Source of the DNA: an uncultured Elusimicrobiales bacterium | GTDB lineage: Bacteria > Elusimicrobiota > Elusimicrobia > Elusimicrobiales > Elusimicrobiaceae | Assembly: GCA_910576915.1 (NCBI GenBank) | Contig: CAJTJT010000001.1 | Coordinates: 148,634-212,633, forward strand | DNA: 64,000 nucleotides | Reading direction: 5' to 3' | Shown here: positions 21,567 to 51,829 of the stretch, in pieces | How the letters are laid out: every line of letters starts with the position of its first letter | How positions within the stretch are numbered: the stretch's first letter is position 1 | Made by a program: the position numbers and the translations under genes | The notes under the pieces: model-generated | What the model was told of the DNA's origin: nothing | Databases searched by the model: none | What the model saw: the letters and a program-made list of their open reading frames with translations, nothing else

Positions 21567-21641
21567 TCGCCCTTAGCTCAATGGTGGAGCGACCGGCTGT
21601 TAACCGGTAGGTTGAAGGTTCGAGTCCTTCAGGGCGAGCCA
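21567..21641 (+). tRNA. tRNA-Asn (GTT), CCA encoded
   Basis: Cloverleaf read by hand: acceptor TCGCCCT/AGGGCGA, D arm GCTC-AATGGTG-GAGC, anticodon arm ACCGG-CTGTTAA-CCGGT, T arm GAAGG-TTCGAGT-CCTTC. Confidence 0.9.
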
Positions 21642-42741: not shown

Positions 42742-43203
42742 ATGAAAGGGTTTACGCTTATTGAGTTATTGGTTGTGGTTTTAATTATTGGAATTTTATC
42801 AGCTGTTGCGTTACCGCAATATCAAAAGGCCGTGGCAAAAGCTCGTTATACGGAAGCCAAACAAACGCTTAAAAGTTTGATGGAAGCTACCCAGCTATAT
42901 ATCTTAGCCAATGGAGATGTCCCGTCGGATATTAATGATTTGGACATTACTCCTCCGTCTTCCAATCATTTTACATACAGTTTTTATAGGTGTATAAATT
43001 CAGCCGGGCAGATGGGGTGCAACTTGCGGGCCAGACCGACGAAGGAAGGGTGGCCGGATTTGCATACGGAAACTGAAAAATACGATTTGCAGGCGCCGTT
43101 GTACAACAGATACGTGTTGGCCTTTTGGGAGTTTGATAAGTGTGGTCAGTGGGGGGCAACGAAAGAATTAATGCCCTGGGGCGAGTATAAGTGTGCATTG
43201 TGA
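42742..43203 (+). CDS. Type IV pilin-like protein
   Basis: MKGFTLIELLVVVLIIGILSAVALPQYQKA with an AAGGAG RBS. The ORF-track start at 42715 is judged too early. Confidence 0.9.
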   Translation: MKGFTLIELLVVVLIIGILSAVALPQYQKAVAKARYTEAKQTLKSLMEATQLYILANGDVPSDINDLDITPPSSNHFTYSFYRCINSAGQMGCNLRARPTKEGWPDLHTETEKYDLQAPLYNRYVLAFWEFDKCGQWGATKELMPWGEYKCAL

Positions 43204-43207
43204 GTAT

Positions 43208-43604
43208 TAAAAAAGCGTCCTCCGCATTTATTCAACGCGGAGGACTATTTAGTTTCTGCCATTGCTATCTCTCATATCCCGCAGGCGGGTAAGCTACAGT
43301 TAAGAATTTTGTTGTGCTGCACGCTGCCTGAAAGCCGGTTGCCCCGGCCCACGTCTTCAGGTGCTCCCAGCCGTCCTCAGACGGAGGGCCCAAAGCTTGT
43401 GAACCGTCAGTACCGCAACCCAACCAACCTGCCGCGCCGTACTTAAACAAAGAACTCTTATTTTCTGCCGCCCTCCGCACTTCGCGCCGCGTTCTTCACG
43501 CCTGCGTGCCGCACGGAGCGGAACAGTTTCACCCAAACACGCCGTATCCTTGCGGAAGTCCGGCGCGCCCGGGGGCGTTTTCTGTACGTCCTCCCCACCG
43601 GGGT
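43208..43604 (-). ncRNA. Candidate ~400-nt non-coding RNA of unknown family
   Basis: The region is bounded by a minus-strand promoter (43611-43638) and a hairpin at 43217-43245 whose U-run (43208-43216) is on the minus strand. There is no SD-preceded ORF. Several short GC stems are capped by UGAG/GCAA/GAAG loops when read on the minus strand. Confidence 0.4.
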
Positions 43605-43610
43605 ATGGAT

Positions 43611-43638
43611 AGTATAATGGTTTTTTAACTAAAATCAA
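43611..43638 (-). promoter_or_regulatory. Sigma70-type promoter TTGATT-N16-TATACT (minus strand)
   Basis: -35 is the complement of 43633-43638 and -10 is the complement of 43611-43616. It lies just downstream of the repressor stop codon. Confidence 0.5.
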
Positions 43639-43653
43639 GGGGTATTCTGTTTT

Positions 43654-44325
43654 TTAGAATACGTTGGTTATTTTCTGCACGGCCGTGCCCAACGGCGTAA
43701 TGGCGGCGGGCGGAAGCCGTTTGTCTAATGTTCCGTCGGGAAAGAACAGCAATATTTGGCCGTTTTCCGTCCGTACACGCTTTAATTGCAGCGTTCCTTC
43801 GGCCTGCAAAAGCATGATTTGCCCTTCTTCCAAAACAGCGGAAGGGCGGATAAGGTATAAATCTTCGCGTCCGCGTGCGCGGGCATAAGCGTCCGCCACC
43901 AGGCATTTGCCTCCTTGGGCGGCGCGCCGGGGGAATGTCCACCATTCGGCCACGTCGCTTTCTTCGTACTGCGGAAACCGGGCGGATACGGTGTGTAAAA
44001 GCGGGATGGAAACGCTGTTGCCTTCCGTGGCTAAAATGTCAGCACTGTAAGCGTTTGAAGCGTCTTGCGCGTCGCGCAAAGCGGCGGTGCGGGGCGCGGT
44101 TTCCGGGTAGGTGGTAAGCGGCGGAAACAGGCGCATGACGTCGAACGGGTCCATCGCAAATAATTGCGCCATACGGGCCAGGTATCCTTTGGAGGGGCGG
44201 CGTTTGCCGGTTGTCCATAAGGCGACGGTGGCGGTAGACACTTGCAAAATTTTTGCTAACTTTGCTTGCGCTCCGCGCAGGATTCCTCCGTTCCATCTTT
44301 CAAGTTGTTTTTCAAATTTGTTCAT
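43654..44325 (-). CDS. Phage CI-like repressor (XRE HTH + S24-like C-terminal domain)
   Basis: HTH AKLAKILQVSTATVALWTTGKRRPS. C-terminal LexA/CI-like beta domain (IPLLHTVSA...LIRPSAVLEEGQIMLL...LKRV). No GDSM-type serine motif was seen. The start was trimmed to MNKFEK. Confidence 0.65.
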   Translation of the reverse strand: MNKFEKQLERWNGGILRGAQAKLAKILQVSTATVALWTTGKRRPSKGYLARMAQLFAMDPFDVMRLFPPLTTYPETAPRTAALRDAQDASNAYSADILATEGNSVSIPLLHTVSARFPQYEESDVAEWWTFPRRAAQGGKCLVADAYARARGREDLYLIRPSAVLEEGQIMLLQAEGTLQLKRVRTENGQILLFFPDGTLDKRLPPAAITPLGTAVQKITNVF

Positions 44326-44374
44326 AGAATATATATCCCGTATTGGAATTTGTCCCGCCAGGGCCAAAAAATAC

Positions 44375-44404
44375 TTGACAAACGCTAACAATACTTACTA
44401 TACT
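44375..44404 (+). promoter_or_regulatory. Strong promoter P0: TTGACA-N18-TATACT, divergent from the repressor gene
   Basis: Perfect -35. The TTGACAAA core is shared with P1 and P2. Confidence 0.6.
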
Positions 44405-44514
44405 AGCTATGTGAAGAGCGGTATCGGCCGCTGTTCATCTTACCGGCGTACTGGGGTATCTTCTGCTTTACAGCTCAGAAAACCAAACACGGAGGGGTTT
44501 ATCCTTTAAACCTG

Positions 44515-44534
44515 CGCCGCGCCTGCGGCGTTTT
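44515..44534 (+). terminator. Candidate attenuator/terminator ~110 nt downstream of P0
   Basis: CGCCGC-GCCT-GCGGCG hairpin followed by TTTT. Confidence 0.4.
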
Positions 44535-44846
44535 GGCTCCGTTGCGCCCAAAACTGCATAATTCTGCCAGGAACTATGTAGTTTATTGTAGCAAATAAAA
44601 AGCCGTTTGGGTTAGCAAAGTTAACGCTTTGGCGCGATTCTCCCACGTGAAAAGGGTTTTTGAACACGCAAGCGTACTTTGCGCCCAACGGCCGGAGCAA
44701 ATATGCGGTTAATGGCTGCGGCAGATATCCTGTTAACTTTGCTGGCCCTTGGATTTGGGTGCGAGTTATATATTTTTTGGCGTAAATAAATTGAAAACAG
44801 GCCGGAACTCCGTTTGTGCGGGGAATAAATAATCTATAATATATAA

Positions 44847-46238
44847 ATGAAATCCGGATTTTCGATTAACATTTACGGCCTGATATTTGCCATCATGCTT
44901 GTCATGGCCGCGCTGACGTATCTGCTCCCCGCCGGCCAATATAATACCGTTGAAAAAGACGGACGCACCTATACCGTGGCGGGTTCTTATCACCATGTGG
45001 ACGCCAATCCCCAGGGCCTCGGCGCCGTGCTTACCGCGCCCGCCAAAGGATTTAGGGACTGTGCCGATATTATCGTGTTTATTTTTATTACGGGGGCGGT
45101 ATTTACCATTTTGGAACGTACCGGCACCGTAAACGCCGTTATTTTGGGCACGAGCTATCTGTTTTCCCGCAAAGAAAAACTGAAGAAGTTTTTTATTCCC
45201 GTTTCCATGATTTTGTTCTCGCTGGGCGGGGCGGTGTTTGGCATGGAAGAGGAAACGCTGATTTTTATTCCGCTTTTTATCCCGCTGGCGCTTTCGCTCG
45301 GATATGATACCGCCGTCGGTGTGAGTATCCCTTTCTTGGGCGCCTGGGTGGGGTTTGGCGCGGCGTTTATGAACCCGTTTACGGTGGGGATTTCGCAGGG
45401 AATCGCCCAGCTGCCGCTGTATTCCGGCCTGGGGTACCGCCTGTTTGTATGGGCGTTTTGTACGGCGGTGGTGATTGGGTTTGTGTCGTGGTACGGGGAA
45501 AAAGTGCGTAAAAATCCGCAGGAAAGCATTACGTACGAAGCCGACTTGGAACGCCGTAAAACGCTGCATTTAAACGTGCTCGAAAAGCCCGAATTTAAAA
45601 CTTCCCATATCCTGATTTCCGTCGTGTTTGCGCTTGGGATGGCGGTGCTGGTGTACGGCGTGGCCGTTTTCCACTGGTATATTGTGGAAATTTCCGGCCT
45701 GTTCCTGGGCGTGGGTTTAATCTGCGCCATCATCGGCCGCTTGAAACTCAACCAAACCACTGATGCTATTGTGGACGGCGCGCGCAGTATGGTGAGCGTT
45801 TCCGTCATGCTGGCGTTGGCGCGGGCGATTGTGGTAATCGCTTCCGACGGGCGGATTTTGGATACCGTTTTGCACTCGATTGCGGGCGGTATCGGCCAGC
45901 TTCACCCGTTAATGGCTGCCGAGGGGATGTTTTGGGCTCACTCGTTTATCAACTTTTTTGTGGCGTCCGGCTCCGGCCAGGCCGTGCTGACCATGCCCGT
46001 TATGATTCCGCTTTCGGACTTAATCGGCGTCAGCCCGCAGCTTTCCATTCTTGCCTACCAATTTGGCGAAGGGTGGACGAATGCCGTCATTCCCACCGCT
46101 CCCGTCACCATGGCCGCTATCGGCATGGCGGGTATTCCGTGGCTGAAATGGGCGCGCTGGAACGTGCCGCTTCAAATTGTGCTGGCCGTTTTATCCATGC
46201 TGCTGCTTATTCCGCCGTATCTGCTGAACTGGAAATAA
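44847..46238 (+). CDS. yfcC: YfcC-family (DcuC-like) transporter
   Basis: Strong colinear resemblance to E. coli YfcC: ILFSLGGAVFGMEEE, FMNPFTVGISQGIA, FFVASGSGQAVLTMPVMIPLSDLIGV, LAYQFGEGW. Confidence 0.85.
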   Translation: MKSGFSINIYGLIFAIMLVMAALTYLLPAGQYNTVEKDGRTYTVAGSYHHVDANPQGLGAVLTAPAKGFRDCADIIVFIFITGAVFTILERTGTVNAVILGTSYLFSRKEKLKKFFIPVSMILFSLGGAVFGMEEETLIFIPLFIPLALSLGYDTAVGVSIPFLGAWVGFGAAFMNPFTVGISQGIAQLPLYSGLGYRLFVWAFCTAVVIGFVSWYGEKVRKNPQESITYEADLERRKTLHLNVLEKPEFKTSHILISVVFALGMAVLVYGVAVFHWYIVEISGLFLGVGLICAIIGRLKLNQTTDAIVDGARSMVSVSVMLALARAIVVIASDGRILDTVLHSIAGGIGQLHPLMAAEGMFWAHSFINFFVASGSGQAVLTMPVMIPLSDLIGVSPQLSILAYQFGEGWTNAVIPTAPVTMAAIGMAGIPWLKWARWNVPLQIVLAVLSMLLLIPPYLLNWK

Positions 46239-46763: not shown

Positions 46764-47213
46764 ATGCCTATTCATAAAAAAACCGCTCTTTCCAAGGCGG
46801 AGGGCTGTGTCGCCAAAAAAGCGCCGCCGCTTCGTTACCGACCGGAATTTTGCGAACGGTTGCTGGCATTCTTTGATGTGCCCGCCTTCCGCGTAACCGA
46901 AGTAATGAAGCGCGACGGGTCCGTTTCCCTGGTGGAAACCGCCGCCGAACTGCCCACGTTCGCGGCATTTGCCAAATCCCTGGGAACAACATGCGCCGTG
47001 CTGGACGAGTGGGAAAAAAAGCATCCCGCTTTCCGGGAAGCGGCCCAAAAAGCGCGCGATTTGCAAAGTAATATCCTCATCCAAAACAGTCTGCGCGGGA
47101 ACTATTCCGCGTCGTTTGCCGTGTTTACGGCAAAAAACCTTTTGGGTTGGCGGGACGGCAAAGACGACCCTTCTTCCGCAGGGCCGCTGGTGGTGCGCTG
47201 GGAGGATAAATGA
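46764..47213 (+). CDS. terS: Terminase small subunit
   Basis: Typical pattern FAAFAKSLGTTCAVLDEWEKKHPAFREAAQKARDL...N...ASFAVFTAKNLLGWRD. A 4-nt ATGA overlap with terL. Confidence 0.7.
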   Translation: MPIHKKTALSKAEGCVAKKAPPLRYRPEFCERLLAFFDVPAFRVTEVMKRDGSVSLVETAAELPTFAAFAKSLGTTCAVLDEWEKKHPAFREAAQKARDLQSNILIQNSLRGNYSASFAVFTAKNLLGWRDGKDDPSSAGPLVVRWEDK

Positions 47214-48520
47214 AGTCTTCTTCCGTTGTGATTCCGTATCACCCCCGCCCGGCGCAGGCACAGATTCACCCTCAGCTGGAAACGCACCGCTTTTGCGTAC
47301 TCGTTACCCACCGCCAGCTGGGCAAGACGGTTTGCGCCGTCAATCATCTGCTGAAAAAAGCGCTTCAAAATACAAAATCCCATCCGCGCTATTTTTATAT
47401 TGCGCCTCTTTTAAAACAGGCCAAAATGATTGCCTGGGATTATTTAAAACGTTTTTCCGCGCCGCTGCCCGGGGTCAGCGTGCACGAGAGCGAACTGTGC
47501 GTCCGTCTGCCCGGCGGTGCGCGTATTTGGGTGACCGGGGCCGACAACCCCGATGCTTTGCGCGGTACGTACGCCGACGGCGTGGTGCTGGACGAATATG
47601 CCCAAATCAAGCCGGACGTATTTACCGAAATCGTCCGACCCATGCTCCTTTCGCGCGAAGGCTGGGCCGTTTTTATGGGCACCCCAAAAGGGCAAAACGC
47701 GTTTTACGAACTTTTCAACCGCGCCCGCAAAGCCGCCCAAACGGAGCCGGGCGTGTGGTGGGTGGGGGTATTCCGTGCCGACGAATCGGGCGTAATCGCT
47801 CCGGCGGAACTGGAACGGCTGCGCCGGGAAACACCGTCCCACGTGTTCCGGCAGGAATATCTGTGCGATTTTACCGCCAGTGCGGAAAATATCTTAATTC
47901 CCATTGACCAAGTGTCCGCCGCCTGTACCCGGCGTTACGCGTCCGGCGAACTGGGCGGCGCGCCGAAAATTATCGGTGTGGACCCGGCCCGCTTTGGCGA
48001 CGATCGGAGCGTTATTTTTATGCGCCGCGGACTGCAGGCCTATCCGCCGCTGGTGTTTGCCAAAATGGACAACATGGCTTTGGCCGCCGCGGTGGCGGGG
48101 CAGATTGAATCGTTCCGGCCCGATGCGGTATTTGTCGACGCCGGATGCGGGGGCGGCGTAATCGACCGTTTGCGCCAGCTGGGGTTTAGCGTAACGGAAG
48201 TTCCGTTCGGCGGGGCGCCTTCCCGCCCGGGCCAGTACGCCAATAAACGCGCCGAAATGTGGGGGGAAATGGCCCGCTGGATTACCGCCGGCGGCGCGCT
48301 GCCGGATGACGGCGCGCTGAAAGCCGATTTGTGCCAGGTGTGCTATGATTACGACGCCGTCGGCCGCTTGCGCCTGGAACCCAAAGAGAAAATAAAAGAA
48401 CGGTGCGGCAAAAGCCCGGATTTGGCCGATGCGCTCGCGCTTACGTTTGCGTCGCCCGTCCGTCCGCGCGCTTTAGGCGGCCGCGGCGAATTTGCCCGTA
48501 GCGATTACGAGGTAATATAG
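47210..48520 (+). CDS. terL: Terminase large subunit
   Basis: Walker A-like VTHRQLGKT, Walker B VVLDEYA, and the nuclease-domain motif IGVDPARFGDDRSV. Confidence 0.8.
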   Translation: MKSSSVVIPYHPRPAQAQIHPQLETHRFCVLVTHRQLGKTVCAVNHLLKKALQNTKSHPRYFYIAPLLKQAKMIAWDYLKRFSAPLPGVSVHESELCVRLPGGARIWVTGADNPDALRGTYADGVVLDEYAQIKPDVFTEIVRPMLLSREGWAVFMGTPKGQNAFYELFNRARKAAQTEPGVWWVGVFRADESGVIAPAELERLRRETPSHVFRQEYLCDFTASAENILIPIDQVSAACTRRYASGELGGAPKIIGVDPARFGDDRSVIFMRRGLQAYPPLVFAKMDNMALAAAVAGQIESFRPDAVFVDAGCGGGVIDRLRQLGFSVTEVPFGGAPSRPGQYANKRAEMWGEMARWITAGGALPDDGALKADLCQVCYDYDAVGRLRLEPKEKIKERCGKSPDLADALALTFASPVRPRALGGRGEFARSDYEVI

Positions 48521-48521
48521 G

Positions 48522-48563
48522 CCTTTTGGTCCCCAAAACGGGACCAAAGGACCCTGTTTTTTT
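48522..48563 (+). terminator. Terminator after terL
   Basis: CCTTTTGGTCCC/GGGACCAAAGG stem, with a T7 run shortly after. Confidence 0.65.
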
Positions 48564-48613
48564 CCGTTTTAAAACGCTACCATACGGATATACCGTGTAA
48601 AGGAGTTTTTCGT

Positions 48614-49729
48614 ATGAAGAAGCGTTTGGGTATGGCCGTTTTGGTTTTGTTGCTGGCGTGTTCGTGGGCGCAGGCGCAAAAGAATGTAATCAAACTGGGG
48701 CGGAATGTGTCCCGCGGCGTGGCGCGCGCCACGGAACAACAGTTTTTAAAATCGGTTCCCGCCCGTACGCTTTCCCTATACGGGCCCGAACTGCGCGCGC
48801 TGGTAGCTTTCAACCGCTTACCGGCAAACGCCTTCCCGAAACTGGCCCGCCGGAACGATTTATTAACGCATCAGGCAGTGAATTTGTTTGTGGCGCAGGA
48901 AAAATTATTTTTGGAACAAGCTCCTTTGTTGGTGGAAAAGATTGAAAGCCGCGTATACAACCGCGTGCCTTATGCAGCGTTACTGCCGAAAGATGCGGAA
49001 GTGCTGTATATCGGCGAGATTCACGGCGTACCGCGCGTGCAGCAGGAAATTGTTACGTTGGTGAAATCGCTTCGGACCGTATATCCCGGCCGGAACATTT
49101 ACTTGGCCGCCGAAGGGGTGCCCGCCGCGTTTGATTTGGACTACTCGACCGACGATTTGATTCATACCCGAGAAGCCCTCCTGGAACGCTTGCACGAAGC
49201 CGCCGAACTGGCGGATATGGAGATGACCGAACTGCTAGCCTCCTCCTCCGTGGTGCTGGCGGCGGTGGAAGCCGGTATTCCCGTTTTGGGGCTTGAAAGC
49301 GAAGGGGCTCTTTGCCGGCTGGCTACCCCCAAAGGGCGCGAAATGCCTACCGAAGAAGAATACCAGCAGGTGGTAACGTCTTTGGCGGGGATGGAATTCC
49401 GCAACCGGGGTTTTGCCAAAGGTATTAACGTGTTGCGCAAGGCGGACCCGGACGCGCTGATTGTGGTGTATGGCGGCATTGACCATTTGGCTTATCACCA
49501 GCTTTCTTCCGTGCCCGCGCTGGTGGGCGGAAAATCTTTTGTCGTACAGGTGACGGTTCCCGCCGCGCTGGCCGAATCGAACCTGTTGTTTCGGTATTTT
49601 AAAGAGCCGGAAGATATCCGCCGCGCGTTTAAGGCGTCGCCCGACGCCAAACTGGCCGAATACTGGAAAGAACCTACCTCTTTTAACCAACTGCTCGGTA
49701 ACGATTTGACCGTTATTGTACACGAATAA
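48614..49729 (+). CDS. Secreted ChaN/Tiki/TraB-superfamily-like protein (cargo gene)
   Basis: Signal peptide. VLYIGEIHGVPRVQQE and YGGIDHLAY motifs. Has its own RBS and terminator. Confidence 0.45.
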   Translation: MKKRLGMAVLVLLLACSWAQAQKNVIKLGRNVSRGVARATEQQFLKSVPARTLSLYGPELRALVAFNRLPANAFPKLARRNDLLTHQAVNLFVAQEKLFLEQAPLLVEKIESRVYNRVPYAALLPKDAEVLYIGEIHGVPRVQQEIVTLVKSLRTVYPGRNIYLAAEGVPAAFDLDYSTDDLIHTREALLERLHEAAELADMEMTELLASSSVVLAAVEAGIPVLGLESEGALCRLATPKGREMPTEEEYQQVVTSLAGMEFRNRGFAKGINVLRKADPDALIVVYGGIDHLAYHQLSSVPALVGGKSFVVQVTVPAALAESNLLFRYFKEPEDIRRAFKASPDAKLAEYWKEPTSFNQLLGNDLTVIVHE

Positions 49730-49754
49730 CTTACCCGTTTGTTTGCATCTTACG

Positions 49755-49786
49755 TGCGCCCCGGGTAAAACCGGGGCGCGTTTATT
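49755..49786 (+). terminator. Terminator after the ChaN-like gene
   Basis: GCGCCCCGG/CCGGGGCGC stem followed by GTTTATTT. Confidence 0.65.
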
Positions 49787-49869
49787 TCCGCCGTCCGTTT
49801 TATAATTTTTTGTTGCTTAAAATTCAAAATTCCGCATACGCTTTTTTTCGTCGGAAAATTAAAAAATGC

Positions 49870-49899
49870 TTGACAAATAAATTTATTTTATGATATAAT
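49870..49899 (+). promoter_or_regulatory. Phage promoter P2: TTGACA-N18-(TGa)TATAAT
   Basis: Paralog of P1. Its transcript would run about 415 nt before reaching the portal start codon. Confidence 0.7.
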
Positions 49900-50059
49900 T
49901 AAAAAATAGAAACACTCCTCACGCAGTACCTTTTATTCCTTTCTTAATTTTCTTTTATTTCCCGTTTTGCAAGCGAATTTTTCGTCGGCGTTTTTATCTT
50001 TTTATATAACTGCATAAAAAAAGCCGCCTCTTGCGAAGCGGCTTCTTAAAATTACTTCT

Positions 50060-50242
50060 CTACCCGGCCGGCGTAAATGCCGGAACCGCCACCAAAATAC
50101 CTATCAAAAGTACCGTCAGCAGAATAGCCAGCGTCAGTGCCGATTTTTTACTCCCCTGCGGAAACACCTTGCGGGTAATAATATAAAACCCCGGAACCGC
50201 CAACAGTACTACAAAAAATAAAATCACAATTACGCTTATCAT
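50060..50242 (-). CDS. Small two-TM membrane protein (60 aa), holin-sized
   Basis: Strong AAGGAGGG RBS, two hydrophobic helices, and its own minus-strand terminator (50017-50045). It lies antisense inside the P2-portal leader. Confidence 0.6.
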   Translation of the reverse strand: MISVIVILFFVVLLAVPGFYIITRKVFPQGSKKSALTLAILLTVLLIGILVAVPAFTPAG

Positions 50243-50314
50243 AATTACCCTCCTTTCTTATATCCTACCGTTTTTTGCTCCTTATACCGCTTCTCTTTTG
50301 CATTAGACCGTTTT

Positions 50315-51829
50315 ATGAAACAAAACCACACCGATTATATGCGTCTTTACGACGAAATGAAAAACGAGCGCGCCACCTGGCTGCCCGTTTGGAAAGACCT
50401 CAGCGCTTATCTGGCGCCCACGCGCGGATTTTTTGACGGGCAAACGCCCAATCACGGCCGCCGCGTCGACCACAAAACCCTCCTGGATTCGGACCCGTGC
50501 CTGGCCGTGGAAGTGCTGTGCGCGGGGATGATGTCCGGCCTGACGAGCCCTTCGCGCGGCTGGTTTGATTTGTCCCTCTCGCCCGAAGAACTGATGGAAC
50601 TGCCCGGCGCGCGGGAATGGGTGTTCGATGTAAAAAAACGGTTGGAAGACGTGTTCGCCAAAAGCAACGTATACGGCGTTTTGCACGGGTTTTATCAGGA
50701 AATTGCCGTATTCGGCACCGCCGCGTTTTTGTTGGAAGAAGACCGCGAAAAAGGCATCCGCTGCCGTCCGTTTACCATCGGGGAATACTGTTTGGGTACG
50801 GACGCCGCAGGCCGCGTAAACCGCTTCGGCCGCGAGTTTTTTATGACGGCCGAACAATTAAAAGAAACGTTCGGCGAAAGCGTCCTTCCGCCCGCCGTGC
50901 GCCGTGCGTGCGAATCCGGCCAAATGGGTACGTGGCATAAAGTGTTCCACCTGATTATGCCCAACCCGGTCCACGACCCTGCCAAACGGGATAACCGCCA
51001 TATGCCTTTTACCAGCGTTCATTTTATGGAAGGGGGACATATTCTGCGCCAAAGCGGCTACAGAGAGTTCCCCGTTATCGCCGCGCGCTGGGAAGTGAAA
51101 AACGCTTCCGACTCCTACGGACGCGGACCCGGCTGGAAGTGCCTGGGCGATGTGAAAATGCTTCAAAAAATGCAGAAAACGAAACTCGTCGCGCTCGACA
51201 AAAGCACCAACCCGCCGATGATGGTTTCTTCCGGCGTGCAGGGCGAAGTAAACCTGCTGCCCGGCGGTATCACCCGCTATAACGGCACGACGGACGCCGC
51301 CGTAAAGCCCGCCTATCTCGTCCAGCCGGATTTGAACGCGCTGGAAGCGTCCATCGCGCAGGTGCGTTCCACCATCCGCGCCCAGTTTTTTGCCGATGTG
51401 TTTCTCTCGCTCTCCGGCCAAAATTATGCCAATATGACCGCCGCCGAAGTGGCCGAACGCCGCCAGGAAAAAATGCTGGTGCTGGGGCCCGTGCTCGAGC
51501 GGCTTAAAAATGAACTGCTGGACCCGCTGATCGACCGCGCGTTTAACTTGCTGGCACGCCAGGGCCTCTTGCCGCCCGCGCCGCAAAGCGTGCAGGGGCT
51601 GGAAATGAAAGTGGAATACGTATCCATGATTGCGCAGGCGCAAAAGGCCGCCGGGCTTTCCGCCTTAACCCAGGGGTTAGCCTATGCTGCCAACATGGCT
51701 TCCGTACGGCCCGAGGTGCTCGAACGCGTGGATTACGACTGCGCCCTCGAAGAAGGCTTAAAAGCGCTTGGCGTGGCTCCCGCCCTGTTAAAAAGCGCGG
51801 AAGAAACGGGTAAGCAGGAGCCGGTTTAG
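50315..51829 (+). CDS. Phage portal (head-to-tail connector) protein
   Basis: Size and position after terL and before scaffold/capsid. The N-terminal pattern ...ERATWLPVWKDLSAYLAPTRG resembles podoviral connector proteins (from recollection). Confidence 0.65.
   Translation: MKQNHTDYMRLYDEMKNERATWLPVWKDLSAYLAPTRGFFDGQTPNHGRRVDHKTLLDSDPCLAVEVLCAGMMSGLTSPSRGWFDLSLSPEELMELPGAREWVFDVKKRLEDVFAKSNVYGVLHGFYQEIAVFGTAAFLLEEDREKGIRCRPFTIGEYCLGTDAAGRVNRFGREFFMTAEQLKETFGESVLPPAVRRACESGQMGTWHKVFHLIMPNPVHDPAKRDNRHMPFTSVHFMEGGHILRQSGYREFPVIAARWEVKNASDSYGRGPGWKCLGDVKMLQKMQKTKLVALDKSTNPPMMVSSGVQGEVNLLPGGITRYNGTTDAAVKPAYLVQPDLNALEASIAQVRSTIRAQFFADVFLSLSGQNYANMTAAEVAERRQEKMLVLGPVLERLKNELLDPLIDRAFNLLARQGLLPPAPQSVQGLEMKVEYVSMIAQAQKAAGLSALTQGLAYAANMASVRPEVLERVDYDCALEEGLKALGVAPALLKSAEETGKQEPV

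What the first reader, a model, noticed from the sequence alone, without database searches (positions are those of the whole stretch)
43208..43638. Promoter- and terminator-bounded ~400-nt non-coding transcription unit next to the phage repressor
A 450-nt gap between the pilin gene and the CI-like repressor has no SD-preceded ORF. On the minus strand it shows a good promoter (TTGATT-N16-TATACT, 43638-43611) placed right after the repressor stop. At its far end is a hairpin (43217-43245) whose U-run is on the minus strand (GCUUUUUUAAUA). Read on that strand, the interior has several short GC stems capped by GNRA-like or UGAG loops (CCGUC-UGAG-GACGG, GCCGG-GGCAA-CCGGC, GCG-UGAAGAA-CGC). There is also a possible long-range pairing of CGCAGGCG with CGCCUGCG about 230 nt apart. 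I compared it from memory with the RNase P, tmRNA, SRP and 6S hallmarks and it does not fit any of them. It could be a prophage-border regulatory RNA, an att-region relic, or a new structured RNA.
Basis: partly seen in the sequence, partly recalled or inferred. Interest (0 to 1): 0.7.

Follow-up and report, generated by a model that had tools for sequence, protein, structure and literature searches.

The report
Conserved structured RNA with terminal mini-ORF
The gap holds a real, previously undescribed ~400-nucleotide folded RNA gene, found in nearly all gut and rumen Elusimicrobiaceae right after the same regulator gene. It ends in a tiny five-to-six-codon reading frame whose stop codon sits in the terminator hairpin, which suggests the RNA works together with ribosomes.

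Summary
On the minus strand, a promoter (TTGATT-N16-TATACT, 43638-43611) and an intrinsic terminator (stem 43245-43217, U-run 43214-43209) bound a ~398-nt unit with no long ORF.

It is a genuine RNA gene. Homologs of 376-428 nt lie directly downstream of the same XRE-HTH/S24-like regulator in 80 of 83 fetched loci and in 7 of 7 true metagenome hits. The -35 and -10 boxes are nearly invariant.

The consensus fold has 76 pairs, 52 of them with compensatory changes. 94.8% of cells are paired, against about 43% when partners are slid. A second clade, folded separately, gives the same topology.

Rfam 15, ARAGORN, a phage database and IMG/VR give no match.

The organism is an Elusimicrobiaceae bacterium. 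The "phage repressor" is a conserved chromosomal regulator that apparently lacks the S24 catalytic serine. The prophage-border and att-relic readings are therefore not supported.

One new feature: every homolog carries an invariant ATG and a 5-6 codon mini-ORF (window MAETK, 43262-43245). An SD-like box precedes it in two of the three clades. There are about 45 different peptides, and TGA, TAG and TAA are all used. The stop abuts or overlaps the base of the terminator stem.

Function is unknown. The best guess is a stand-alone structured RNA whose 3' tail engages ribosomes.

The parts
43633..43638 (-). -35 box TTGATT of the RNA's own promoter (preceded by a conserved CCCC)
   Evidence: CTTGAT is nearly invariant in 57 aligned homologs.
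43611..43616 (-). -10 box TATACT
   Evidence: It is nearly invariant while the spacer sequence is not conserved, as expected for a promoter.
43209..43606 (-). Predicted transcript (RNA-1), about 398 nt. The 5' end is inferred 5-7 nt after the -10 box; the 3' end is in the U-run.
   Evidence: Full-length homologs of 376-428 nt in 80/83 loci. The TSS is not mapped experimentally.
43586..43606 (-). 5' strand of the closing helix P1 (it can alternatively form a local CCCC/GGGG hairpin)
   Evidence: Cognate duplexes between the 5' end and the pre-SD segment average -14.1 kcal/mol, against -10.3 for non-cognate pairs over 20 permutations. The window's MFE structure also has this helix.
43578..43585 (-). 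ACAG of helix H1 plus the first CAGAAAA junction motif
   Evidence: H1 pairs with CUGU at 43299-43296; 95.7% of cells are paired and the outer pair covaries.
43532..43573 (-). P2 hairpin
   Evidence: helix 2, 5 pairs, all with compensatory changes. The equivalent helix is seen in group B.
43465..43526 (-). Domain II. It is closed by AACUG (43526-43524) pairing with the CAG of the second GCAGAAAA motif (43467-43465). It contains the GCG-UGAAGAA-CGC hairpin (43506-43485).
   Evidence: helix 3; closing helix 92% paired; its fourth pair is CG/UG/UA.
43301..43460 (-). Domain III, helices H4-H11. It is closed by UAAGAG..UUUG pairing with CAAA.UUCUUA and includes the CCGUC-UGAG-GACGG hairpin (43388-43367).
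   Evidence: helices 4-11 are 87-99% paired and most pairs have compensatory changes. In group B the closing helix has a different sequence (AAAUGUUCC/GGAACAUUU) at the same place.
43273..43299 (-). CUGU of H1 plus the 3' strand of P1, ending directly at the SD-like box
43269..43273 (-). SD-like purine box GAGAG, 6 nt before the ATG
   Evidence: Group A has AAGAGAG and group B has GAAGGAAAA at the same place. It is weaker or absent in the most divergent clade.
43245..43262 (-). Mini-ORF ATG GCA GAA ACT AAA TAG (MAETK)
   Evidence: In 77/77 homologs the ATG is invariant, the ORF has 5 or 6 codons, and the stop is TGA (32), TAG (25) or TAA (17). There are about 45 distinct peptides. The segment is predicted to be mostly unpaired: 0.65-0.70, against 0.33 for the body.
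43209..43245 (-). Intrinsic terminator: a 12-bp stem at 43245-43217, then GC and the U-run at 43214-43209. The G of the TAG stop is the first stem base. It also serves the convergent pilin gene.
   Evidence: Helix 12 has 14 pairs, 9 of them with compensatory changes. The median hairpin energy across homologs is -23 kcal/mol.
43654..44325 (-). Upstream gene that is always linked to the RNA: an XRE-HTH plus S24-like (LexA-fold) regulator, 223 aa

Best explanation
SHOWN: this is an independent, lineage-specific gene for a ~400-nt highly structured RNA, here called RNA-1. It has its own conserved sigma-70-type promoter and ends at an intrinsic terminator.

The fold is a long closing helix (P1/H1) between the 5' end and the segment just before the SD-like box. 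This helix encloses a four-way junction with A-rich joining strands, marked by the motif series CAGAAAA...AACUG...CAGAAAA...AACUG. From the junction spring a hairpin (P2), domain II and a large domain III.

Outside the closed body lies a ~30-nt open tail. It carries an SD-like box, an invariant AUG, 5-6 codons of variable sequence, and a stop codon embedded in the base of the terminator stem.

INFERRED: the body is the functional part of a trans-acting or ribonucleoprotein RNA. The tail is a ribosome-docking mini-cistron. A ribosome that initiates there fits between P1 and the hairpin, but to reach the stop codon it must melt the terminator hairpin. Translation of the mini-ORF would therefore couple the fate of the RNA to ribosome availability or activity. 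During synthesis the choice is between termination and read-through. In the finished RNA, translation would expose the 3' end. The RNA could equally use the tail to tether its body to ribosomes.

The strict linkage to the XRE/S24-like regulator gene suggests co-transcription or a shared regulatory circuit.
For: - Conservation and linkage.
- Promoter.
- Structure: 76 pairs, 52 with compensatory changes. 94.8% of cells are paired, against 84.7% in shuffles (0/500) and 41-45% with slid partners.
- An independent clade gives 77 pairs, 49 with compensatory changes, and the same topology.
- P1. Domain II closure.
- Non-coding: no conserved long ORF.
- Mini-ORF: 77/77 homologs, three different stop codons, about 45 peptides, only 5 or 6 codons. 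The stop overlaps the stem by 2 nt in 46 of 74.
- The tail is predicted accessible.
- The downstream gene varies, and in about 25 species it is convergent, so the RNA is kept without any gene to regulate.
- No known family matches.
Against: - There are no expression data. The TSS, the 3' end and translation of the mini-ORF are all inferred.
- The SD-like box is weak in group A (GAGAG) and not obvious in the most divergent clade.
- In about 20 species a co-directional gene starts only 30-100 nt after the terminator. That fits a leader/attenuator role at least there.
- Nothing identifies a target, a ligand or a protein partner.
- The mechanism proposed for the tail has only a remembered precedent (the E. 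coli ampC attenuator), which was not checked here.
Confidence: 0.45

Rival explanations
1. It is a cis-acting leader with a ribosome-dependent attenuator. The structured body senses a signal and sets access to the SD and AUG. Translation of the mini-ORF across the terminator's 5' arm prevents termination and lets transcription run into the next gene.
For: The short ORF abuts the terminator in all homologs. In group B yggS, and in other clades dksA-like, hydF or a 528-aa gene, start 20-100 nt after the terminator with little room for a promoter of their own. A pyrimidine box (GUUCUUUG in group A, GUUCCUUG in group B) is complementary to the SD-like box of the same group.
Against: The downstream gene differs between clades. 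In the window's clade (about 25 species) it is convergent, yet the RNA, the mini-ORF and the terminator are fully kept. No conserved antiterminator was found: the GCGGAGG copy upstream exists only in the window's closest relatives. The tail is predicted open rather than sequestered. The SD/anti-SD complementarity has no informative covariation within a clade.
Confidence: 0.22
2. It is a partner RNA or 3'-UTR element of the XRE/S24-like regulator. It is co-transcribed with the regulator and binds, titrates or otherwise controls it, or controls the regulator's mRNA. It thereby feeds into control of the divergent transporter operon.
For: The RNA is immediately downstream of this gene in 80/83 loci and in 7/7 metagenome hits, while both outer neighbours vary. 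No convincing terminator lies between the regulator's stop codon and the RNA. The regulator appears to lack the catalytic serine, so it may need another way of being inactivated.
Against: The RNA has its own strong conserved promoter. Nothing tested here shows binding. This reading does not explain the mini-ORF.
Confidence: 0.12
3. It is a strongly diverged copy of a universal RNA (RNase P RNA, tmRNA, 6S RNA or SRP RNA) that the covariance models miss.
For: The size (~400 nt), the strong promoter and the presence in every member of the family would fit a housekeeping RNA. One paper reports that no SRP RNA was detected in Elusimicrobium minutum (PMC4779614).
Against: No Rfam hit even at E<=10 with permissive filters. 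ARAGORN is negative. No conserved RNase P, tmRNA or SRP signature sequences were seen by eye. The 3' end is a terminator hairpin, not a tRNA-like end. An SD plus AUG mini-ORF is foreign to all four RNAs.
Confidence: 0.03
4. It is a prophage-border RNA, an att relic or a decayed protein gene, as the first reader offered as alternatives.
For: Terminase and portal genes lie about 3 kb away, beyond the transporter gene.
Against: No phage or IMG/VR homolog was found. The locus is conserved across about 80 species with chromosomal neighbours. Stop-free stretches differ in frame and position between homologs, and the helices covary.
Confidence: 0.02

Closest known systems
Orphan large structured bacterial RNAs (OLE, raiA, ROOL, GOLLD)
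   Same: It is several hundred nucleotides long, has many covarying helices, is restricted to one lineage, has a conserved genomic neighbourhood and has no known function.
   Different: It matches none of their Rfam models. It is confined to Elusimicrobiaceae. It carries a conserved translatable-looking mini-cistron fused to its terminator. To my knowledge this is not a feature of those RNAs.
E. coli ampC (frd) attenuator, cited from memory (Jaurin et al. 1981) and not verified here
   Same: A ribosome-binding site with a start codon and a stop codon lies directly before a terminator hairpin. Ribosome binding is thought to interfere with the hairpin, making read-through depend on ribosome availability.
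   Different: The ampC element is a short leader before a defined gene. Here a 340-nt conserved structured body precedes the mini-cistron, and there is no constant downstream gene.
Leader-peptide attenuators (trp, pyrBI, erm and cat leaders; mgtA leader with mgtL)
   Same: A short upstream ORF is placed next to a terminator inside a long structured RNA.
   Different: The peptide has no regulatory codons or conserved stalling motif (about 45 different sequences). No alternative antiterminator was found. No conserved regulated gene follows.
tmRNA and dual-function sRNAs (RNAIII, SgrS, SR1)
   Same: It is a structured RNA that also presents a short reading frame to ribosomes.
   Different: It has no tRNA-like domain and no ARAGORN or Rfam hit. 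Unlike the tmRNA frame, this one has an SD-like box and an AUG. The 5-6 residue product is too short and too variable to be a functional protein like those of dual-function sRNAs.

Membership tests
Any Rfam 15 family (4227 models, including RNase P, tmRNA, 6S, SRP, OLE, GOLLD, ROOL, raiA, HEARO, riboswitches and T-box) | The covariance-model score reaches the family's gathering threshold. | tested here: not met
   The only window hit is a tRNA at 21567-21638. At E<=10 with permissive filters there is one chance-level plus-strand hit inside 43208-43638 (bxd_5, 15.3 bits, E=1.6) and nothing on the minus strand.
tmRNA | A tRNA-like domain formed by the 5' and 3' ends, and a tag reading frame without an SD or AUG. 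| tested here: not met
   ARAGORN finds only tRNA-Asn in the window. The RNA's 3' end is a terminator hairpin, and the frame starts with an SD-like box and an AUG.
Leader-peptide transcription attenuator | A short ORF is placed immediately upstream of, or overlapping, an intrinsic terminator. | tested here: met
   A 5-6 codon ORF whose stop abuts or overlaps the base of the terminator stem is present in 77/77 homologs.
Leader-peptide transcription attenuator | A conserved alternative antiterminator pairing competes with the terminator. | tested here: inconclusive
   No conserved upstream copy of the terminator's 3' arm was seen in the alignments. The search was not exhaustive.
Leader-peptide transcription attenuator | A defined co-directional downstream gene is under its control. 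| tested here: not met
   The downstream gene is a convergent ABC exporter or pilin in the window's clade, and yggS, dksA-like, hydF or another gene elsewhere.
Prophage immunity region (CI-type repressor with adjacent regulatory RNA) | The repressor and RNA lie inside a mobile prophage, with homologs in phage genomes. | tested here: not met
   No phage or IMG/VR homolog of the RNA was found. The regulator is syntenic with chromosomal genes across about 80 species.
LexA/CI self-cleaving S24 repressors (the neighbouring gene) | A catalytic Ser (G-x-S-M motif) and Lys dyad. | tested here: inconclusive
   The profile aligns to the LexA C-terminal domain at E = 0.003-0.008. The segment holding LexA Ser119 falls in a gap or variable stretch, and the family consensus there is GAKYLV. 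A KR matching LexA Lys156 is present. The Pfam S24 hit is below the cut-off.
Structured non-coding RNA (generic) | Secondary structure is conserved through compensatory base changes, beyond the controls. | tested here: met
   52 of 76 pairs have compensatory changes, against 30.5 +/- 2.7 in shuffles (0/500) and 15-24 with slid partners. 94.8% of cells are paired. A second clade replicates this.

The most novel reading that the evidence does not exclude
RNA-1 is a new class of ribosome-engaging regulatory RNA. A large folded body is fused to an obligatory 5-6 codon cistron whose stop codon lies inside the RNA's own terminator or 3'-protective hairpin. Each round of translation melts that hairpin. 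This sets the RNA's 3'-end formation, stability or read-through, so the cell reads out free-ribosome or translation capacity through the level of a trans-acting RNA. Alternatively, the tail uses the ribosome as a docking site for the body.
Probability: 0.3. Interest if true: 0.8.

Novelty: new variant of a known kind. Interest (0 to 1): 0.66.

Why it matters
Large, ornate bacterial RNAs outside the universal set are rare, and each has eventually pointed to unexpected biology. This one has unusually clean comparative support: about 85 homologs and two clades that give the same fold independently.

It also has a feature I did not find described. Rfam has no match, and five full-text searches plus term look-ups in four papers turned up nothing. 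That feature is an invariant start codon and a 5-6 codon frame that ends inside the terminator stem, kept even where there is no downstream gene.

If the mini-cistron is translated, the locus offers a simple, testable system for how ribosome traffic can control the fate of a non-coding RNA.

It also adds annotation to Elusimicrobiaceae, a poorly studied gut and rumen lineage. A second, equally conserved structured RNA sits on the other side of the same regulator.

Tried and rejected
- Rfam at the gathering threshold and at E<=10: no relevant hit.
- ARAGORN: no tmRNA.
- Self-BLAST of the window: the element is single copy.
- Coding test: the longest stop-free stretches differ in frame and position between homologs. 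The longer ones on the opposite strand reflect its low content of stop triplets, not a conserved frame.
- Prophage origin: 23 IMG/VR pattern matches were all chance by profile nhmmer, and there is no blastn match in 50,697 phage records.
All 7 have the regulator upstream, so the scan says little about total distribution.
- Hammerhead-like CUGAAGA and GAAAC strings in the window are not conserved in the alignments. CsrA-type GGA loops are likewise not conserved.
- An upstream GCGGAGG copy, considered as an antiterminator, occurs only in the window's nearest relatives.
- Loop-to-strand pairing of CGAAGAGC with GUUCUUUG is 97% paired but almost invariant, so it cannot be tested.
- Base-pairing between RNA-1 (GGCAGAA) and the loop of the second RNA (UUCUGCC) does not covary in the L074/L078 clade, so I treated it as chance.
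- Literature searches for Elusimicrobia structured or non-coding RNAs found nothing relevant. A search for the ampC attenuator found no usable open paper.

Full report
**1. What is in the window**

Between a type IV pilin-like gene (42742-43203, plus strand; N_methyl motif) and a 223-aa regulator gene (43654-44325, minus strand) lies a 450-nt gap. The regulator has an HTH_3 domain and a weak Peptidase_S24 match.

On the minus strand the scan finds TTGATT-N16-TATACT at 43638-43611. It also finds a 12-bp terminator-like hairpin at 43245-43217 followed by GCTTTTTT.

The minus strand folds well below shuffled controls: -173 kcal/mol, z = -4.9, against z = -3.0 for the plus strand. Rfam gives no hit at the gathering score. 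At E<=10 nothing relevant appears: one chance-level plus-strand hit (bxd_5, E = 1.6) and nothing on the minus strand. ARAGORN finds no tmRNA. The element is single copy in the window.

**2. Organism and neighbour**

The regulator has hundreds of homologs, the few named ones labelled LexA family or Elusimicrobiaceae.

A scan of one genome per species with a profile of the regulator returned 80 loci. Most are titled as Elusimicrobiaceae or other Elusimicrobia MAGs, and some as uncultured bacteria. Four bins carry other names.

The regulator is therefore a conserved chromosomal gene of this family. Its divergent neighbour in distant members is the same YfcC/DcuC-type transporter.

Aligned to the E. 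coli LexA C-terminal domain (E = 0.003-0.008), the stretch holding the catalytic Ser119 (G-M-S-M) falls in a gap or variable segment, where the family consensus is GAKYLV. A KR matching Lys156 is kept. I infer that it may not be a self-cleaving SOS or CI-type repressor. This is inference only.

**3. The gap is a conserved element**

In near-identical strains the 450 nt are 100% identical, while the pilin gene beyond the terminator is replaced by another pilin in one of them.

The window sequence alone finds full-length matches directly after the regulator gene in 59 loci. A profile finds them in 80 of the 83 loci then held. One of the three misses ends at the contig edge.

Seven were true homologs, and all seven have the regulator immediately upstream on the same strand.

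The gene beyond the RNA varies:

| Clade | Gene after the RNA |
|---|---|
| Window's clade | Convergent ABC exporter, with or without a pilin |
| A second clade (group B) | Co-directional yggS |
| Others | dksA-like, hydF or a 528-aa gene |

Linkage is thus to the regulator only.

**4. It is non-coding and structured**

No long ORF is conserved. The longest stop-free stretches differ in frame and position between homologs.

In an alignment of 29 group-A homologs (A3), RNAalifold predicts 76 pairs, 52 of them with compensatory changes. Counting on that structure gives the following:

| Measure | Observed | Column shuffles | 3' partner slid by 1-3 columns |
|---|---|---|---|
| Cells forming a standard pair | 94.8% | 84.7% (0/500 reach the observed value) | 41-45% |
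| Pairs with compensatory changes | 52 | 30.5 +/- 2.7 (0/500) | 15-24 |

A separate alignment of 20 group-B homologs gives 77 pairs, 49 with compensatory changes, and the same topology. This holds even where the sequences differ. The helix closing domain III is UAAGAG/UUCUUA in group A and AAAUGUUCC/GGAACAUUU in group B.

**5. Anatomy (window coordinates, minus strand)**

- **Promoter:** -35 box at 43638-43633 and -10 box at 43616-43611. Both are nearly invariant and the spacer is free. The 5' end is inferred near 43606.
- **Closing helix P1/H1:** the first ~20 nt pair with the ~20 nt just before the SD-like box. Cognate duplexes average -14.1 kcal/mol against -10.3 for non-cognate pairs. The ACAG/CUGU core is 95.7% paired.
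- **Four-way junction:** it lies inside the closing helix, and its joining strands are A-rich. They carry the repeated motifs CAGAAAA...AACUG...CAGAAAA...AACUG. CAG-1 pairs with CUG-2, and CUG-1 pairs with CAG-2.
- **Arms of the junction:** P2 (43573-43532), domain II (43526-43465, with the GAAGA-loop hairpin) and domain III (43460-43301, eight helices including the UGAGG-loop hairpin).
The other two are not conserved.

**6. The unexpected part: the 3' tail**

After P1 come an SD-like purine box (window GAGAG at 43273-43269; AAGAGAG in group A; GAAGGAAAA in group B) and 6-9 nt of spacer. Then follow an ATG, 5 or 6 codons, and a stop that abuts or overlaps the base of the terminator stem. In the window the frame is ATG GCA GAA ACT AAA TAG at 43262-43245, and the G of TAG is the first stem base.

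This arrangement is present in all 77 homologs examined:

- The ATG is invariant.
- The stops are TGA (32), TAG (25) and TAA (17), and never a sense codon.
- There are about 45 distinct peptides, with no conserved motif beyond a preference for E, K or N at positions 2-3.
- Only two ORF lengths occur, 5 and 6 codons.

The pattern fits selection for a start, a length and a stop position, not for a peptide. I take it as strong, though indirect, evidence of translation. In the most divergent clade the SD-like box is not evident.

In partition-function folds of about 50 homologs, the SD, AUG and ORF positions are unpaired with probability 0.50, 0.70 and 0.65. The body averages 0.33. The tail is therefore an open ~30-nt window between two stable structures, about one ribosome footprint long.

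**7. How it most likely works**

Shown: this is a stand-alone, promoter-to-terminator RNA gene with a conserved complex fold and a conserved mini-cistron.

Inferred:

- A ribosome can initiate between P1 and the hairpin, but to place the stop codon in the A site it must unwind the 5' arm of the terminator.
- During transcription this would favour read-through.
- On the finished RNA it would transiently strip the 3'-protective hairpin.
- Either way, the fate of the RNA becomes a function of ribosome availability. Alternatively, the tail simply tethers the body to ribosomes.

The remembered precedent is the E. coli ampC attenuator, where a ribosome site with AUG-UAA sits before a terminator. I could not verify it in the library.

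The main rival is a classical leader/attenuator. It is attractive for the roughly 20 species in which the next gene starts 30-100 nt after the terminator. It is contradicted as a general explanation because about 25 species have no co-directional gene and still keep everything.

A role tied to the regulator is suggested only by the strict linkage. That role could be co-transcription, a 3'-UTR element or a decoy.

**8. What it is not**

- It is not a prophage-border RNA or an att relic. No phage or IMG/VR homologs exist, and the synteny is chromosomal.
- It is not a pseudogene.
- It is not a member of any Rfam family.
- The literature searches found no description of it.

**9. Verdict**

Novelty: a new RNA family of the "orphan large structured RNA" kind. 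Its distinctive added feature is a conserved mini-cistron fused to the terminator. The function remains a hypothesis that simple experiments can test.

Noticed in passing
window 44374-44600 (+ strand): There is a second conserved structured RNA on the other side of the regulator. Its promoter, CTTGACAAAYGCTAACAATACTTACTATACTA, is 90-100% invariant at most positions, most of the spacer included, in 68 sequences (67 of 78 loci plus the window). That suggests an operator inside the promoter. The ~195-nt transcript that follows has 52 predicted pairs, 33 with compensatory changes, in 25 homologs. It forms a 5' hairpin, a long-range helix, a three-way junction and a 3' hairpin with the conserved loop AAUUCUGCCAGGAAC. 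It has no Rfam hit. It may be a riboswitch-like leader of the transporter operon or a separate sRNA.
   Followed up: partly
window 44590-44846 (+ strand): Between the second RNA and the YfcC/DcuC-type transporter gene (44847-46238) lie repeated boxes, TTGTAGCAAAT and GGTTAGCAAAG, that resemble part of the divergent promoter's spacer. There is also a 28-codon hydrophobic small ORF (44703-44789, MRLMAAADILLTLLALGFGCELYIFWRK) with a GGAG SD. A small gene is also called at this place in a distant relative (L084).
   Followed up: no
window 43654-44325 (- strand): The regulator family (XRE HTH plus an S24-like fold) seems to lack the catalytic-serine motif of LexA and CI (family consensus GAKYLV where LexA has G-M-S-M). 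It scores below the Pfam S24 cut-off and matches no NCBIfam model.
   Followed up: partly
window 42742-43203 (+) versus L001 7125-7640: In a strain whose regulator and RNA are identical to the window's, the convergent pilin gene just beyond the shared terminator is replaced by a different pilin (171 aa instead of 153 aa). In many species there is no pilin there at all. This looks like a variable pilin cassette site.
   Followed up: no
window 46764-51829 (+ strand): Phage-like genes follow the transporter: small terminase-like, large terminase (Terminase_6N), a 371-aa protein and a T7-type portal (Head-tail_con). A terminase pair sits next to the same transporter in a relative whose regulator is only 48% identical (L086), but not in another (L084). 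It is unclear whether this is a prophage remnant or a domesticated element.
   Followed up: no
window 43177-43205 region and RNA-1 box 43448-43455: Within RNA-1, the pyrimidine box GUUCUUUG (GUUCCUUG in group B) is complementary both to the GAAGAG hairpin loop and to the SD-like box of the same clade. This could be a pseudoknot or a way of sequestering the SD. The bases are almost invariant within a clade, so covariation cannot decide.
   Followed up: partly
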